Source: Parcubacteria group bacterium M6-OD1-3
GTDB taxonomy: Bacteria > Patescibacteriota > Minisyncoccia > Moranbacterales > UBA9337
DNA length: 64,000 nucleotides
Assembly: GCA_003056165.1 (NCBI GenBank)
Contig: LSNR01000002.1
Coordinates: 2,726-66,725 of the forward strand
Direction: 5' to 3'
A program made the translations under genes and the position numbers. The notes under the pieces were generated by a model. The model searched no databases and was not told where the DNA came from. It worked only from the letters and a program-made list of their open reading frames with translations. Position 1 is the stretch's first letter. The number at the start of each line of letters is the position of its first letter. This document shows, in pieces, positions 32,845 to 39,156 of the stretch.

Positions 32845-33332
32845 GTCATCCTGGAAGTTAGAAATTCTTAAACGAACTTTGTCTGCCGATAGGCAGGCGA
32901 AGTGAGTTTGTAGAATTTCAACTATCTGGGATCTCAATAAAATTGCGCTAAACTTTACAAATTAATATATAAATCCTTCCATTCTGAATTTTCTTTTTCA
33001 ATTAATTCTATTTTCCATTTTCTCCTAAATCTTTTCAGCTTCTTTTCTCTTTCTATAGCACTAATTATATTCTCTGTTTGTTCATAGTATACTAGCTTAT
33101 CTAGGTTATATTTTTTCGTAAATCCATCTATATGTTTTTGCCTATGTTGCCAAATTCTCCGTTGCAAATTTCCAGTCACGCCAATATATAATACTCCTCT
33201 TTTTTTATTGGTGACAATGTAGATGCAATACTGTCGCATATTTTAGTTTTTTTATTTTTACTGAGATCCCGGACAAACTATTTTTCTATTACTCGCTTCG
33301 CTCATAATGAAAAATATGTTTTCCAGGATGAC
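32845..33332. mobile_element. about 490-bp GIY-YIG mini-element with about 90-bp imperfect inverted terminal repeats (ends gtcatcctggaa / ttccaggatgac; sub-terminal gcgaagtgagtttgtagaa…ctgggatc vs gatcccgg…ctattactcgcttcgc)
   Basis: Inverted repeats read directly; sits between atpD stop and atpC start. Confidence 0.65.
32955..33239 (-). CDS. GIY-YIG nuclease (small stand-alone family)
   Basis: 'CIYIVTNKKRGVLYIGVTGNLQRRIWQH' GIY…YIG signature. Confidence 0.8.
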   Translation of the reverse strand: MRQYCIYIVTNKKRGVLYIGVTGNLQRRIWQHRQKHIDGFTKKYNLDKLVYYEQTENIISAIEREKKLKRFRRKWKIELIEKENSEWKDLYINL

Positions 33333-33340
33333 ATAAAAAA

Positions 33341-34711
33341 TTACTCTTTCACTTCCTCAATTCCGCCTTTCATATAAAATTCTTGTTCAGCAATATTGTC
33401 CATTTTACCATCCAGAATTTTTTTGAAACTTTTAATTGTATCTTTCAATTTAACATATTTCCCTGGAGTTCCTGTGAATTGCTCCGCCACAAAGAAAGGT
33501 TGTGATAAAAATTTCTGAATTTTTCGTGCTCGTGCCACCGTTATTTTGTCCTCATCCGACAATTCCTCCATTCCTAAAATTGCAATAATATCCTGTAAAT
33601 CTTTATATCGTTGTAAAACTTGTTGTACTCCACGCGCCACATCATAATGTTCTTGTCCAATAATGTTTGGATCTAAAATTGTTGAAGCACTATCCAGCGG
33701 GTCAACTGCTGGATAAATTCCCAATTCTGAAAGTCCACGAGAAAGTACCACTGTTGAATCTAAATGTCCGAAAGTTGTTGCCGGCGCTGGATCAGTCAAA
33801 TCATCTGCTGGCACATAAACCGCCTGTACTGATGTCACTGAGCCTTTTTTAGTTGAGGTAATTCGCTCTTGTAATTGTCCCATTTCCTCCGCTAAAGTCG
33901 GTTGATAACCAACTGCTGATGGAATTCGACCTAATAACGCTGACACTTCTGAACCAGCTTGTGTAAATCGAAAAATATTATCTACAAAAAGTAAAGTGTC
34001 TTTCCCTTCTTCATCACGAAAATGTTCCGCCATTGTTAAAGCAGAAAGTGCTACTCGCTGTCGTGCTCCCGGTGGCTCATTCATTTGTCCGAAAACCAAA
34101 GCTGTCTTATCCAAAACACCAGATTCTTTCATCTCATGATAAAGATCGTTTCCTTCACGAGTTCGCTCTCCAACACCAGCAAACATTGAGTATCCGCCGT
34201 GTTCTTGAGCAATATTTCTAATAAGCTCCTGAATAATAACTGTTTTACCAACTCCAGCTCCTCCAAAAAGACCAATTTTTCCACCTTTCACAAATGGACA
34301 AATTAAATCAATAACTTTAATTCCTGTTTCCAAAACTTCCGCCTCAGTTGCTTGTTCAGAAAATTTTGGTGCCGAACGATGAATTGGACTTCTTTTTTCA
34401 GTTTTTACTTCTTCCTTGCCGTCAATCGCCTCACCTAATAAATTAAACATTCTTCCTAATGTTACTTCACCGACTGGTACTGTAATCGGCGCCCCTGTAT
34501 CAACTACTTCCATTTTCCTCCTTAAACCATCAGTAGATCCCATTGCTACCGCCCGCACTTTATTACTACCCATATGTTGATGCGTTTCTAAAACTAACCT
34601 TCCATCATTTTCCAAGCTTATTTCTAAAGCATTGTAAATTTTCGGTAAAGCTTCTTCAAACTCTACATCCACCACCGGACCAATTACTTGTACTATTTTT
34701 CCTTTGTTCAT
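33341..34711 (-). CDS. atpD: F-ATPase beta subunit
   Basis: P-loop 'GGAGVGKT'; 'DELSDED' region. Confidence 0.95.
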
Positions 34712-34868
34712 ATTTTTACTTATTTTTAAATTTTAATTTATAATTTAAAGTTTTTTTACAATCTCCAATTTACAATCTATTTTCATAAATTGTAAATCTT
34801 GAATTATAAAATATTATTTTTTAACCCCGTTCTACAATTTGATTTATTCATATCCAAATCACCAATTC

Positions 34869-35267
34869 TTATCCCTCGTTAATAAATGGATTATTTCCCT
34901 CAAATAATATTTCCCTCACTTCATTGTTGATAAACCTTTCTGACACTCCATATTTTTGACTATATAATATACTAACTGGACCAAAAATTGCCTCATTATA
35001 GTTGAATCCCATTTTTTTACTAACTTTTTTTACAACTTTCTCCGACTTTCCTTCAATTTCTACAAACGGTTCTAAAAATGGCCATTCGTCAATCATAATT
35101 TCTACACCATCTACTTTCCAAATTTCTCGTCTAGTTTCCTGGTATGATTTTTTTTGACAGCCGATTGCTTTTAAAAATAATTCTGCTTGCTTGTAATTAT
35201 CAACTTCCAGTTCTATCTCTTTCTGACCTTTGATATCAGATTGATTATCAATGGATTTAAAAGTCAA
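34869..35267 (-). CDS. CYTH-like (CyaB/ThTPase-type) domain protein, possibly C-terminal half only
   Basis: 'VDGVEIMIDEWPFLEPFVEIEG' resembles the CYTH C-terminal strand; inserted between atpD and atpG. Confidence 0.35.
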   Translation of the reverse strand: MTFKSIDNQSDIKGQKEIELEVDNYKQAELFLKAIGCQKKSYQETRREIWKVDGVEIMIDEWPFLEPFVEIEGKSEKVVKKVSKKMGFNYNEAIFGPVSILYSQKYGVSERFINNEVREILFEGNNPFINEG

Positions 35268-35526
35268 AGTTATTTTTTCATTTTCATCTCTAACTCTCAG
35301 CCAACTTTTTTTAACTTTACAATCTTGTGGAGGTCGCCAAGTGCTTCTTTTTTGTAAAAATTCTTTTTTTATTAATTCCGCTCCAATTTCTTTTAATTTA
35401 ATCCCAATATCGTCTTTATTAATATTTTTAAATGTTGCCTCAATTCAATATTCATATTATTAACTTTCATATATTAGTTTCCAATTTCAGACAAATTTAT
35501 TAAATATTTATTTATAACTCATAATT

Positions 35527-36483
35527 TTATTCTAATGCGGCGCGACCAGCGGAAATTTCTGCTATTTCTTGAGTAATTTTTGTTTGCCTAATCTGATTAT
35601 ACGCCAATGTCAAACCCTCTGCCATATCATTAGCCGCATCAGTTGCACTCCGCATCGCCATCATTCGTGCTGATTCTTTAGAAGCATTTGACTCCAGAAT
35701 AGCGTGATAAATTTGCATTTCAATCAAACGAGGAATAATATGTGTTAAAACTTTTTTAGGACTTGGCTCCACCTTATATTCCATTTGCGGTTCATTTAAT
35801 CCATATTCTTTAGCTAGATTATCCATCTCCGCAATTTGCTTTTCTAAATCAATTTTGGAAACTGGTAGCAATTGTCTAATTTTCGGCTCTTGTGTCATTG
35901 TTGAAATATAATCAGTATAAGCGATAACAACTTTATCATATTTTTTTTCCAAATAGTCATCTATCACTATTTTTGATACAGGACGAACGCCTTCAATTTT
36001 TGGAAGATAAGTTAATTCGGGAAAAGTAGCAACAATTTCTTTGCCCAATTTTCGCACCAAATTTTCACCCTTCTTACCGACTGTGATAAAATCAATTTTC
36101 AAGTCTTTGTCAGCAATATCTGATTCTATTTTTTGCACACCAATTCTGTTTACTTTTAAACTAGCCGGTTTTGTAATTTCATTCTTAATTTTTTTAATAA
36201 TTTGGGCATTAAAAGAGCCACATAAACCACGATTGGAAGTAATGGCAATCACCAAAACTTTTTTAACCGGTCGCACTGCTAATAATCCATGTTCATATTT
36301 TTCAAAAGCTCTTGCCAAATTAGTTAAGACACTCCAAGCACTGTGTGCATATTCACGAATTTTCAAAACACTTTCTGTCGATTTACGCATTTTTGCAGCC
36401 GAAACCATCTCCATTGCTCGAGTTATTTTTGCCGTATTATTTATCGACTTTATCCGCCGATTTATATCTTTTAAATTAGTCAT
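35527..36483 (-). CDS. atpG: F-ATPase gamma subunit
   Basis: 'IKSINNTAKITRAMEMVSAAKMRK' N-terminus; conserved C-terminal helix. Confidence 0.9.
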   Translation of the reverse strand: MTNLKDINRRIKSINNTAKITRAMEMVSAAKMRKSTESVLKIREYAHSAWSVLTNLARAFEKYEHGLLAVRPVKKVLVIAITSNRGLCGSFNAQIIKKIKNEITKPASLKVNRIGVQKIESDIADKDLKIDFITVGKKGENLVRKLGKEIVATFPELTYLPKIEGVRPVSKIVIDDYLEKKYDKVVIAYTDYISTMTQEPKIRQLLPVSKIDLEKQIAEMDNLAKEYGLNEPQMEYKVEPSPKKVLTHIIPRLIEMQIYHAILESNASKESARMMAMRSATDAANDMAEGLTLAYNQIRQTKITQEIAEISAGRAALE

Positions 36484-38460: not shown

Positions 38461-38477
38461 AAATTTTTCAATTATTA

Positions 38478-38570
38478 ATTTAGCATTTTGAATTTTGATT
38501 GAATGATTTAATGTTAAAATTTTTAATTAAAACATTAAATAACTAAGCTTTCAATCAAAATTCAAAATTT
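38478..38570. repeat. empty MITE-like copy of the 4HB element: two inverted terminal repeats facing each other with about 16 bp between
   Basis: ttagcattttgaattttgattgaatgatttaatgtt / aacattaaataactaagctttcaatcaaaattcaaaattt. Confidence 0.6.
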
Positions 38571-38586
38571 AATCCACAATTTATAA

Positions 38587-38988
38587 TTATTTTACCATCG
38601 CTTTTCTCAATTCCCGCAACTGTCTACTCACGCTTCCATCCAAAACCTCATCGCCAACCTTGATAATAACTCCACCTTTAATATTTTTATCTACTTTATT
38701 CTTTAAATGTACCTCCTTCGCTTGATATTTATTTTTTACAAATTCCTTAGTTTCATTTTGCAAACTTTCACTCAATTCTCGACGACTAATAACTTCCGCC
38801 TCCACAATCCCATTTTCTTTGTTCCAAATTTCCGAAAACTTTTTCACAATATCCGACAACAAATTTAACTGCCGATTTTTCTTCAATAGCTCCGCCAACT
38901 TTTTAATCACACCATCAACCTCACTCTCACTCTTTTTCTGAGTCAGCTCAAATAATGTCTGCGCATATTGTTTACTTGTTATTTTCAT
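38587..38988 (-). CDS. atpH: F-ATPase delta (OSCP) subunit, short form
   Basis: Operon position; conserved C-terminal 'GGVIIKVGDEVLDGSV'. Confidence 0.75.
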   Translation of the reverse strand: MKITSKQYAQTLFELTQKKSESEVDGVIKKLAELLKKNRQLNLLSDIVKKFSEIWNKENGIVEAEVISRRELSESLQNETKEFVKNKYQAKEVHLKNKVDKNIKGGVIIKVGDEVLDGSVSRQLRELRKAMVK

Positions 38989-39003
38989 AAATATAGTCAG
39001 TGT

Positions 39004-39156
39004 GTCATTCTGGAAAACATATTTTTCATCGTGAGCTTGCGAACGATAGAAAAATAGTTTATCCGGAATCTACCCTTTAATATATATCACAAATTATCAT
39101 ATAAATCCTTCTATTTTGGATTTTCTTTTTCAATTAATTCTATTTTTCAGGATGAC
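39004..39156. mobile_element. internally deleted (MITE-like) derivative of the GIY-YIG element: both termini (gtcattctggaa … ttcaggatgac), sub-terminal repeat and about 50 bp of the nuclease gene 3' end retained
   Basis: Compared by eye with 32845-33332. Confidence 0.6.

What the first reader, a model, noticed from the sequence alone, without database searches (positions are those of the whole stretch)
32845..39156. GIY-YIG mini-element with long inverted terminal repeats, plus an internally deleted MITE-like derivative, both in ATP synthase intergenic spacers
The 94-aa GIY-YIG gene (32955-33239) is bracketed by about 90-bp imperfect inverted repeats. The outer ends are gtcatcctggaa / ttccaggatgac. 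The sub-terminal blocks are gcgaagtgagtttgtagaatttcaactatctgggatc vs gatcccggacaaactatttttctattactcgcttcgc. At 39004-39156, between atpH and atpF, both termini and the sub-terminal block are present (gtcattctggaa…gcgaacgatagaaaaatagtttatccggaatc…ttcaggatgac). Only about 50 bp of the nuclease 3' end remains between them. This suggests a transposon-like, non-intron GIY-YIG element family with autonomous and non-autonomous members.
Basis: seen in the sequence. Interest (0 to 1): 0.7.

Follow-up and report, generated by a model that had tools for sequence, protein, structure and literature searches.

The report
ssDNA nuclease gene flanked by hairpins
The small GIY-YIG gene and its "inverted terminal repeats" are a member of the Ssn family described in 2025, a nuclease that cuts single-stranded DNA next to hairpin repeats flanking its own gene; this copy sits in a Moranbacteria-like (CPR) genome, and the second locus is a decayed copy.

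Summary
A 94-aa GIY-YIG gene (32955-33239, minus strand) is bracketed by a perfect 13-nt terminal inverted repeat and imperfect ~90-nt arms. Locus 39004-39156 carries both termini, one complete arm and a 61-nt remnant of the gene's 3' end.

It is not a new kind of element. It matches the Ssn/SRM system (Chenal et al. 2025, PMC11893778). SsnA is a 94-aa single-domain GIY-YIG nuclease that binds a hairpin repeat in single-stranded DNA only and cuts just upstream. Its gene is typically flanked by such hairpins in inverted orientation.

Each arm here is a self-folding hairpin of the form GTC, long stem, C. In 79 homologous loci from many phyla, 51 carry such units on both sides; shuffles predict about 2.

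Three points go beyond the paper:
- The hairpins are 66-89 nt, of two conserved types (A upstream, B downstream), and escape the published SRM search pattern.
- Related metagenomes hold at least 21 gene-less A-B' doublets (102-218 nt) at unrelated intergenic sites.
- A collinear relative has compact atp spacers where the window has these elements.

So mobility is supported, but there is no target duplication and the mechanism is unknown. Verdict: new member of a known kind, moderate-to-low interest.

The parts
33265..33332 (-). Type A hairpin unit upstream of ssnA, in the sense orientation of the gene. Sequence: GTCATCCTGGAAAACATATTTTTCATTATGAGCGAAGCGAGTAATAGAAAAATAGTTTGTCCGGGATC.
   Evidence: It folds alone as ssDNA with dG -12.9 kcal/mol, z -4.1. 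It aligns with 23 other type A units; the 25-bp hairpin is 96.8% paired, with 9 pairs showing compensatory change.
32955..33239 (-). ssnA-like gene: a 94-aa single-domain GIY-YIG nuclease, apparently intact.
   Evidence: Pfam PF01541, E=6.6e-14. More than 2575 homologues of about 93-100 aa. Y7, Y18, R28, H32, E65 and N84 are invariant in 34 sequences.
32845..32933 (+). Type B hairpin unit downstream of ssnA, inverted relative to the A unit. Form: GTCATCCTGGAAGTTAGAAATTCTT...AGAATTTCAACTATCTGGGATC, with an apical extra hairpin ctgccgataggcag.
   Evidence: It folds alone as ssDNA with dG -22.8 kcal/mol, z -6.7. It shares 59 of 68 positions with the B unit of the gene-less doublet in L131, and is homologous to the downstream arm of L103.
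32845..33332 (-). Whole module, A hairpin - ssnA - inverted B hairpin (488 bp), in the atpD-atpC spacer.
   Evidence: Perfect 13-nt terminal inverted repeat. The spacer is 618 nt here against 45 nt between the matching blocks in the collinear relative L087, and the annotated gap is 12 nt in L093/L094.
39004..39070 (+). Complete type A hairpin unit of the small copy.
   Evidence: It folds alone with dG -14.6 kcal/mol, z -5.5. It is 85-91% complementary to 33264-33333 (I6, I13).
39089..39149 (-). Remnant of the 3' end of an ssnA gene: last codons, stop codon and 3' flank. No intact ORF remains.
   Evidence: 90% identity over 61 nt to 32957-33017 (D9).
39145..39156 (-). Outer half of a second, inverted hairpin unit (GTCATCCTGAAA). 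The rest of that unit and about three quarters of the gene are missing.
   Evidence: One mismatch to the terminal 12-mer. This end does not fold (fourth sequence, z +0.4). The junction fits a deletion between the 7-nt direct repeat TTTTCCA, present at 33011-33017 and 33319-33325 in the full copy (inference).
39004..39156 (.). The small copy as a whole (153 bp), in the atpH-atpF spacer.
   Evidence: The window holds 178 nt between the blocks that abut in L087, where the atpF-atpH spacer is 4 nt.

Best explanation
The gene at 32955-33239 encodes a member of the Ssn family (SsnA-like): a 94-aa single-domain GIY-YIG nuclease. The two 'arms' are its cognate hairpin repeats, equivalent to the NTS/SRM repeats of other bacteria. 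One lies on each side of the gene, in inverted orientation.

By homology, the protein recognises the hairpin only when that strand is single-stranded. The determinants are GTC immediately 5' of the stem, the stem itself, and a C immediately 3' of it. It then hydrolyses the strand a few nucleotides upstream of GTC. With inverted units, each strand of the module carries one cleavable site at its own 5' edge.

In this Moranbacteria-like (CPR) lineage the hairpins are long (66-89 nt, about 25 bp of stem). They come in two conserved types: A upstream of the gene and B downstream.

The module, and gene-less A-spacer-B' doublets made of the same units, have spread to many intergenic sites, including spacers of the ATP synthase operon. 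The path is unknown and probably depends on replication or recombination.

Locus 39004-39156 is a decayed copy: one intact A hairpin, 61 nt of the gene's 3' end, and the outer 12 nt of the other hairpin.

Shown here: the anatomy, the homology, the structural conservation, the dispersal and the empty sites. Inferred from the published family: ssDNA-only binding and cleavage. Inferred without a mechanism: mobility.
For: **Protein**
- GIY-YIG domain only, 94 aa.
- The family of about 93-100-aa proteins has invariant Y7, Y18 and E65. These fit the Y6, Y17 and E64 residues that are catalytic in the 94-aa N. meningitidis SsnA (PMC11893778, and the Fig. 3 legend).

**Flanking units across the family**
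- Among 79 homologous loci from CPR, Proteobacteria, Bacteroidota, Planctomycetota, cyanobacteria and others, a unit of GTC + stem of at least 7 bp + C lies upstream in sense orientation in 57. It lies downstream in antisense orientation in 62, and on both sides in 51. Shuffled flanks give about 2.
- Stem sequences differ among taxa while GTCAT and ATC stay fixed.
- Homologues with 48-53% identity (L031, L057, L079) are flanked by the exact published NTS consensus.
- The paper reports the same architecture: 42% of homologues flanked on both sides, ssDNA-only binding, a cut upstream, GTC and the 3' C critical, and loop identity dispensable with loop extensions tolerated.

**The window's arms**
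- All three complete arms fold on their own as ssDNA hairpins, z -4.1 to -6.7.
- Twenty-four type A units give a 25-bp stem that is 96.8% paired, with 9 pairs and 70 cells showing compensatory change; 0 of 500 shuffles reach this.
- G.T wobbles outnumber A.C pairs 16 to 5, which fits folding of the GTCAT strand.
- The same A/B asymmetry is present around a 67%-identical gene in an unrelated context, L103, between nrdR and nrdD.

**Spread**
- 21 gene-less A-B' doublets were found.
- Copies up to 95% identical have unrelated flanks.
- About 25 of 27 units are intergenic.
- The collinear relative L087 and the more distant L093/L094 have compact atp spacers.
Against: - The window's units do not match the published degenerate SRM pattern, even with the loop length relaxed, because the stem CCTGGAA lies outside YYVSBRH.
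- Assignment to CDD cd10448 and direct comparison with N. meningitidis SsnA could not be run.
- No biochemical data exist for any CPR member or for hairpins this long. The paper only shows that artificial loop extensions are tolerated.
- Only 3.5 units occur in these 64 kb, so proliferation in this particular genome is not shown.
- Empty sites are defined only at spacer resolution, in a relative with 75-86% nucleotide identity.
- No target duplication or precise excision footprint was seen.
- One cleavable site per strand does not by itself explain transposition.
Confidence: 0.85

Rival explanations
1. This is a classical cut-and-paste DNA transposon whose GIY-YIG protein is the transposase. 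It binds double-stranded terminal inverted repeats, and 39004-39156 is a MITE mobilised in trans.
For: - Perfect 13-nt terminal inverted repeat.
- Gene-less derivatives with both termini, at many unrelated sites.
- Empty orthologous spacers in relatives.
Against: - No target-site duplication at the full copy, the small copy or 21 doublets.
- Each arm is an internally self-complementary hairpin kept by compensatory changes, with a G.T strand bias. That points to a single-stranded structure rather than a duplex binding site.
- GIY-YIG enzymes hydrolyse DNA and have no known strand-transfer chemistry (established knowledge).
- Characterised family members do not act on dsDNA (PMC11893778).
- The 153-bp copy's specific structure was not found elsewhere. 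The only other hit, L109, is the same locus.
Confidence: 0.08
2. The hairpins work mainly at the RNA level in the polycistronic atp transcript, as processing, stabilising or attenuating stems like REP elements or rRNA intervening sequences cut by RNase III. The GIY-YIG gene is a passenger.
For: - All the elements lie in the spacers of one operon. The gene and the neighbouring inserted genes are co-oriented with it.
- The stems would fold equally well as RNA, and G.U wobbles are tolerated.
- A second inverted-repeat family in the same window also occurs inside the 16S rRNA gene.
Against: - The hairpin-gene-hairpin association holds in 51 of 79 loci across phyla and in unrelated contexts. That ties the hairpins to the nuclease rather than to a host transcript.
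- GTC and the 3' C are conserved regardless of context.
- Published SsnA does not bind the RNA form.
- Doublets occur in both orientations relative to neighbouring ORFs.
Confidence: 0.05
3. This is a free-standing GIY-YIG homing endonuclease of the I-TevI/Seg type. It cuts an empty allele of its insertion site and spreads by repair. The repeats are incidental.
For: - GIY-YIG domain, with a weak hit to the group I intron endonuclease model TIGR01453 (17.9 bits).
- Presence/absence polymorphism between relatives.
Against: - The TIGR01453 score is far below its cutoff of 56.
- The protein is only 94 aa, with no DNA-binding domain.
- Homologues sit in many unrelated contexts, not in one target gene.
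- The flanking hairpins are conserved family-wide.
Confidence: 0.02

Closest known systems
Ssn nuclease family (SsnA, CDD cd10448) with NTS/SRM hairpin repeats: Chenal et al., Nat Commun 2025, PMC11893778
   Same: - 94-aa single-domain GIY-YIG protein with conserved Tyr/Tyr/Glu.
- The gene is flanked on both sides by inverted hairpin repeats that begin (C)GTCAT and end ATC.
- Additional copies of the repeat occur in intergenic DNA.
- The authors themselves note the IS-like look of the architecture.
   Different: - The hairpins are 66-89 nt with about 25 bp of stem, against about 24-28 nt for NTS.
- There are two distinct conserved types, A and B, at the two ends.
- The stem sequence (CCTGGA/TCCGGA) falls outside the published SRM search pattern.
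- The host is a CPR (Moranbacteria-like) bacterium, a group the main text of the paper does not mention.
- Activity here is untested.
Neisseria dRS3 repeats and NIMEs (Neisseria intergenic mosaic elements)
   Same: - dRS3 (ATTCCC-N8-GGGAAT) is the core of the NTS hairpin.
- NIMEs are short intergenic sequences bracketed by inverted dRS3 (own knowledge). The gene-less A-spacer-B' doublets found here are organised comparably.
   Different: The units are much longer, the sequence differs and the phylum differs. No link to phage integration or to antigen genes was seen here.
REP/BIME repeats with RAYT (REP-associated tyrosine transposase), and REPIN doublets
   Same: - A small nuclease gene is flanked by inverted copies of the hairpin repeat it is thought to act on in ssDNA.
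- Dispersed intergenic doublets fold into long hairpins.
- The copies lack target duplications.
   Different: The enzyme is a hydrolytic GIY-YIG nuclease, not an HUH/Y1 transposase, so no covalent intermediate or rejoining activity is expected.
IS200/IS605 'peel and paste' elements
   Same: Sub-terminal hairpins are recognised in single-stranded DNA. There are no target duplications.
   Different: - IS200/IS605 ends are in direct orientation on one strand, and both are cut by TnpA.
- Here the units are inverted, so each strand carries only one cleavable site.
- The enzyme class is different.
MITEs derived from TIR transposons (for example Correia elements)
   Same: Elements of 150-220 bp with terminal inverted repeats, without a gene, in many intergenic copies.
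   Different: There is no target-site duplication and no DDE-type parent element. The arms are themselves hairpins.

Membership tests
Ssn (SsnA-like) ssDNA nuclease family | Single-domain GIY-YIG protein of about 94 aa with no extra DNA-binding domain | tested here: met
   A 94-aa ORF, with PF01541 covering residues 3-76. Homologues are 93-100 aa.
Ssn (SsnA-like) ssDNA nuclease family | Catalytic Tyr (GIY), Tyr (YIG) and Glu; these are Y6, Y17 and E64 in N. meningitidis SsnA | tested here: met
   Y7, Y18 and E65 are invariant in 34 aligned homologues and present in the window protein. The correspondence to the published residues is inferred from spacing.
Ssn (SsnA-like) ssDNA nuclease family | Placement in CDD cd10448, or blastp E<1e-10 to N. 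meningitidis SsnA | not testable with these tools
   No CDD library or Neisseria sequence was available, and the paper's supplements are not held. Indirect support: homologues at 48-53% identity (E about 1e-30 to 1e-32) are flanked by the exact published NTS consensus (L031, L057, L079).
Ssn (SsnA-like) ssDNA nuclease family | Gene flanked 5' and 3' by oriented hairpin repeats (GTC 5' of the palindrome, C 3' of it), with the two sides inverted | tested here: met
   Units at 33265-33332 (sense) and 32845-32933 (antisense). The same arrangement holds in 51 of 79 homologous loci against about 2 expected.
Ssn (SsnA-like) ssDNA nuclease family | Repeats match the published SRM pattern HGTCWYN(0-2)YYVSBRHN(0-5)WNVSBRGN(0-2)RNCYNB | tested here: not met
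   No match anywhere in the window, and none in the two element regions (32701-33400, 38951-39200) with the loop relaxed to 0-100 nt. The pattern matches 36 of 80 homologous loci. It is a search heuristic of the authors, not a functional definition.
Ssn (SsnA-like) ssDNA nuclease family | Binds and cuts only ssDNA carrying the repeat, a few nt upstream; does not act on dsDNA, RNA or the complementary strand | not testable with these tools
   This needs biochemistry. Only indirect support exists: the G.T over A.C bias (16 to 5) on the GTCAT strand.
TIR transposon / MITE | Terminal inverted repeats | tested here: met
   13-nt perfect inverted repeat. Doublet termini pair over 13-15 nt.
TIR transposon / MITE | Target-site duplication flanking each copy | tested here: not met
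   No direct repeat flanks the full copy, the small copy or the 21 doublets. A possible ~25-nt duplication beside the small copy is not significant; 46 of 500 shuffles reach the score.
TIR transposon / MITE | Encoded transposase of a known class (DDE, serine, tyrosine or HUH) | tested here: not met
   The only ORF is the GIY-YIG domain protein.
TIR transposon / MITE | Multiple near-identical copies at unrelated loci, and empty sites in relatives | tested here: met
   Doublets are 80-95% identical with unrelated flanks. atp spacers are compact in L087, L093 and L094. These sites are resolved only to the spacer, not to the nucleotide.
REP/RAYT (REPtron) | Y1/HUH transposase-like gene (RAYT) | tested here: not met
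   Pfam finds only GIY-YIG and T5orf172.
GIY-YIG homing endonuclease (I-TevI/Seg type) | Nuclease domain joined to a DNA-binding domain; located in an intron or phage context | tested here: not met
   94 aa in total. TIGR01453 scores 17.9 bits against a cutoff of 56. No intron-type Rfam family reached its gathering score anywhere in the window.

The most novel reading that the evidence does not exclude
The hairpin-ssnA-hairpin module and its gene-less A-B' doublets are active mobile elements. They would be a GIY-YIG-driven, ssDNA-hairpin-guided counterpart of REP/RAYT and IS200/IS605, inserting into tight operon spacers of streamlined CPR genomes.

The window and its relatives would then supply what the 2025 paper could only suggest: empty versus filled orthologous sites, a conserved two-arm (A/B) element definition, and a MITE-like non-autonomous form.
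Probability: 0.35. Interest if true: 0.7.

Novelty: new member of a known kind. Interest (0 to 1): 0.33.

Why it matters
This locus by itself is a further instance of a published system, so it changes little.

Its value is as comparative material. The Ssn paper left open whether hairpin-ssnA-hairpin modules are mobile and what they do outside Neisseria. The following points bear on that:
- A small CPR genome has the module and a decayed copy wedged into spacers of the essential ATP synthase operon.
- A collinear relative has those spacers nearly empty.
- Related metagenomes carry many gene-less doublets built from the same two hairpin types.

This is the kind of evidence that supports past mobility. 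It also shows that the published SRM search pattern misses long-stem variants, so the family's repeat census is probably an underestimate.

Natural hairpins of 66-89 nt that keep the GTC and C determinants are ready substrates for testing how Ssn enzymes read structure against sequence.

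Tried and rejected
**Database searches that found nothing useful**
- Rfam at gathering thresholds over the whole window found only the 16S rRNA and two tRNAs, with nothing at the element.
- A PDB sequence search gave no hit.
- NCBIfam gave only sub-threshold hits.
- The paper's supplementary tables are not held, so neither the N. meningitidis SsnA sequence nor the authors' homologue list could be used.

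**Tests that came out negative**
- The published NTS and SRM patterns do not match the window.
- A search for target-site duplications found none.
- A suggestive ~25-nt duplication of the atpH start on both sides of the small copy did not beat shuffles, with 46 of 500 reaching the score.

**Scripts and scans that had to be redone or filtered**
- My first permissive hairpin-unit scan of the window returned dozens of chance hits and was useful only for the three true units.
- A first regular expression for type A units was too strict and was replaced by fuzzy matching.
- The metagenome scan also returned about 17 unrelated hits, in particular a recurring coding-like sequence GTCATTTTGGAAAGCATATTTCTCTATG... 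These were discarded because they do not close into a hairpin.

**Ideas dropped**
- I first read the type A units as solo repeats. Reading further downstream showed that most are halves of doublets.
- I also considered that the doublet spacer is a remnant of the ssnA 3' end. The similarity is limited to short AT-rich stretches, so I do not claim it.
- L095, the relative with 88% AtpC identity, breaks 40 nt upstream of atpC and gave no junction.

Full report
**1. What is in the sequence**

The window is low in G+C. It carries an ATP synthase operon on the minus strand:
- atpB 40154-40915
- atpE 39813-40079
- atpF 39202-39753
- atpH 38587-38988
- atpA 36970-38460
- atpG 35527-36483
- atpD 33341-34711
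- atpC 32301 to about 32720

AtpC's best database matches are Moranbacteria/Moraniibacteriota (CPR) proteins.

Between atpD and atpC lies a 94-aa ORF (32955-33239, minus strand) that is a GIY-YIG domain and nothing else (PF01541, E=6.6e-14). It is bracketed by a perfect 13-nt inverted repeat, TGTCATCCTGGAA at 32844-32856 and 33321-33333. At 0-1 mismatch, the 12-mer occurs in 64 kb only at 32845, 33321, 39004 and 39145.

The two ~90-nt arms share 60 identical positions over 102 aligned columns (z=7.6).

For 39004-39156:
- The left 72 nt are the reverse complement of the full element's right arm.
- Positions 39089-39149 match the 3' end of the gene (32957-33017) at 90%.
- The last 12 nt are the terminus.

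**2. The arms are hairpins, not simple TIRs**

Each complete arm is self-complementary and folds on its own as single-stranded DNA:

| Arm | Strand | dG (kcal/mol) | z |
|---|---|---|---|
| 32845-32933 | + | -22.8 | -6.7 |
| 33265-33332 | - | -12.9 | -4.1 |
| 39004-39070 | + | -14.6 | -5.5 |

The fourth end (39145-39156) is only the outer half of a unit and does not fold.

Every unit reads GTC, then a stem starting AT(C/T)CTGGA..., then its complement ...TC(C/T)GG(G/A)AT, then C.

**3. The same anatomy surrounds homologues across bacteria**

The protein has more than 2575 homologues of about 93-100 aa. Y7, Y18, R28, H32, E65 and N84 are invariant.

In 79 genome loci encoding homologues (CPR, Proteobacteria, Bacteroidota, Planctomycetota, cyanobacteria, Chloroflexota and others), I looked for a unit of GTC + stem of at least 7 bp + C. 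It lies:
- upstream in sense orientation in 57 loci;
- downstream in antisense orientation in 62;
- on both sides in 51.

Shuffled flanks give about 2.

The stems differ among taxa (ATTCCCGCG, ATCCTGAAC, ATCCTCGGG, ATTCCGCAC and others) while GTCAT and ATC stay fixed. Several lineages have long-loop units: L001, L002, L039, L044, L078.

**4. Literature match**

This is the system described by Chenal et al. 2025 (PMC11893778).
- SsnA of N. meningitidis is a 94-aa single-domain GIY-YIG protein (CDD cd10448).
- It binds the hairpin repeat NTS (CGTCATTCCCGCGMAVGCGGGAATCYRG, an extension of dRS3) only as ssDNA and only on that strand. It cuts a few nucleotides upstream.
- The three nucleotides 5' of the palindrome matter most for cutting. 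The C just 3' of it matters most for binding.
- Loop identity is dispensable, and artificial loop extensions are tolerated.
- 42% of homologues are flanked on both sides by related motifs (SRM).
- The authors note that NTS-ssnA-NTS looks like an insertion sequence and compare it with REP/RAYT. They leave mobility as a hypothesis.
- In Neisseria the enzyme lowers transformation by NTS-bearing DNA.

Three of my homologous loci (L031, L057, L079; 48-53% protein identity to the window's protein) carry the exact NTS consensus.

The window's units keep GTC, the stem and the 3' C. They do not match the authors' degenerate SRM pattern, even with a relaxed loop, because the stem CCTGGAA lies outside it. 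I could not run CDD or compare directly with the Neisseria protein.

**5. What is particular here**

*(a) Two arm types.* The arms are of two conserved types. L103 is a hydrothermal-vent contig with a 67%-identical gene between nrdR and nrdD. It has the same upstream type A (GTCAT-YYYGGAAARYATATTTTTC...GAAAAATARYTTATCCGKGATC) and the same downstream type B (GTCATCYYGGAAGTTARA..TTCTT...).

*(b) Type A units in metagenomes.* A metagenome scan with the 5' half of type A gave 47 loci, about 30 of them true 62-85-nt hairpins.
- An alignment of 24 units supports a 25-bp stem: 96.8% of cells paired, 9 pairs and 70 cells with compensatory change, and 0 of 500 shuffles as good. The slid controls drop to 33-55% paired.
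- G.T pairs outnumber A.C pairs 16 to 5 on the GTCAT strand.
- About 25 of 27 units are intergenic.

*(c) Gene-less doublets.* Most of these units are halves of gene-less doublets: A, a 20-60-nt spacer, and an inverted B'.
- 21 doublets of 102-218 nt were found.
- They are made of the same A and B types as the window's arms: 53 of 67 and 59 of 68 identical positions to L131.
- Copies are up to 95% identical at loci with unrelated flanks.
- None has a target duplication.

*(d) Empty sites in relatives.* L087 is collinear with the window from TatD through the operon to RF-1, at 75-86% nucleotide identity and 92% AtpC identity. The alignment blocks break exactly at the spacers.

| Spacer | Window | L087 |
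|---|---|---|
| atpD-atpC, between matching blocks | 618 nt | 45 nt |
| atpF-atpH, between matching blocks | 178 nt | 0 nt (annotated spacer 4 nt) |
| atpA-atpG, annotated | 486 nt | 5 nt |

The more distant L093 and L094 are also compact. L087 instead carries a type A unit, a Cys-rich 93-aa ORF and a remnant of another element in its atpE-atpF spacer. The compact state is most simply ancestral. The spacers of this operon have been invaded repeatedly.

**6. The small copy**

On the plus strand it reads, in order:
- a complete A hairpin (39004-39070);
- 18 nt;
- 61 nt that match the antisense 3' end of ssnA;
- then directly ...TTTTTCAGGATGAC.

In the full copy the heptamer TTTTCCA occurs both in the coding sequence (33011-33017) and at the start of the terminal 12-mer (33319-33325). 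A deletion between the two would give the observed junction, apart from one C-to-T change (inference).

The arm next to the gene's 3' end is type A here but type B in the full copy. The small copy therefore descends from a differently assembled module, not from a plain deletion of its neighbour. Mosaic arrangements do occur, as in L134 and L127.

Its particular structure was found nowhere else. L109 is the same locus at 99.9% identity. I therefore read it as a decayed ssnA locus. The doublets are the family's real MITE-like form.

**7. Mechanism**

The most likely account is as follows. The nuclease recognises A and B hairpins extruded from single-stranded DNA during replication, repair or DNA uptake, and nicks just 5' of GTC. 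This is inferred from the characterised homologues.

Because the two units are inverted, each strand has one cleavable site at the 5' edge of the module. A hydrolytic GIY-YIG enzyme cannot rejoin DNA. Spread must therefore use host replication or recombination, and this step is unknown.

In the atp mRNA the hairpins may incidentally affect processing or stability. This was not tested.

**8. Verdict**

This is a known kind of system (Ssn/SRM, 2025) and a new CPR member with long two-type hairpins.

It is wrong about the nature of the repeats and about novelty.

Interest is moderate to low, unless the mobility reading is pursued.

Noticed in passing
window 36489-36962; also 38485-38568, 32724-32840 and 23926-24090: A second inverted-repeat element family.
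- A 119-aa gene of the '23S rRNA intervening sequence protein' family (PF05635, E=3.4e-17; 36546-36905, minus strand) lies between atpA and atpG. It is bracketed by a 27-nt, 96% complementary inverted repeat (AATTTCCAATTTCGAATTTTGATTGAA).
- Gene-less palindromic copies of the same repeat lie between atpA and atpH (38485-38568) and inside the 16S rRNA gene (23926-24090).
- A remnant with part of the gene's 3' end lies next to the ssnA module (32724-32840).
- The relative L087 has a 5-nt atpA-atpG spacer, and a remnant of this gene in its atpE-atpF spacer instead (L087:4776-4891, 81% to window 36497-36617).
   Followed up: partly
window 23545-25647: The 16S rRNA gene spans 2103 nt against a 1533-position model, so it holds about 570 nt of insertions. 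One is the repeat pair at 23926-24090. Another is bounded by a 27-nt, 89% inverted repeat at 24781-24807 / 25207-25233 and contains a 76-aa ORF (24893-25123, minus strand).
   Followed up: partly
window 34711-35527: The atpD-atpG spacer is 815 nt and holds a 132-aa ORF (34869-35267, minus strand). It matches only the C-terminal half of the CYTH domain (PF01928, profile positions 66-156), so it is probably a truncated inserted gene. L087 has 238 nt there with a 30-aa ORF, and L093/L094 have 25 nt.
   Followed up: partly
L087:4038-4891: In the close relative, the atpE-atpF spacer is about 850 nt, against 60 nt in the window. It holds a type A hairpin (about 4115-4200), degenerate hairpin fragments, a 93-aa Cys-rich ORF with no Pfam hit (4390-4671) and a remnant of a PF05635 gene. 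Different spacers of the same operon were invaded in the two lineages.
   Followed up: partly
window 39174-39198 and 38971-38995: The sequence just after the atpF stop (ATTTAATTTGAAAATTTGGATAAAATA) resembles the atpH start region that follows the small copy (ATTTATGAAAATAACAAGTAAACAATA). Both align to the single atpF/atpH junction of L087. This could be a decayed ~25-nt duplication made at insertion, but the similarity is not significant (46 of 500 shuffles).
   Followed up: yes
window 32840-32844, 38998-39003 and 39157-39161; L134 and L147: The bases immediately 5' of GTCAT are often CAGTT or CAGTGT, at three of the four termini in the window and also in L134 and L147. At many doublets they are T-rich (..TTTTAT). 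This is the region where Ssn enzymes are reported to cut. It could be part of the unit or a site preference.
   Followed up: no
L096-L102 (ssnA between a Sortilin-like gene and frr): An identical 94-aa SsnA homologue (66% identical to the window's protein) sits at the same locus in several related metagenome contigs. It is surrounded by canonical NTS units plus truncated half-units, and the number of these differs between contigs (for example 1-3 copies of gggaatgacataaagaaac). The repeat arrays change quickly while the gene stays fixed.
   Followed up: no
L093:5577-5624 and L094:5584-5624: The atpF-atpH spacer of these more distant relatives consists of a tandem heptamer (GCCATAA, about 7-9 copies).
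   Followed up: no
window 13992-14088, 15326-15422 and 61209-61305: A 97-nt sequence is repeated three times (95% and 73% identity to the reference copy). A 100% identical 36-nt repeat lies at 60900-60935 / 61027-61062, the second copy overlapping the 3' end of the tRNA gene at 61046-61118. Neither was examined.
   Followed up: no
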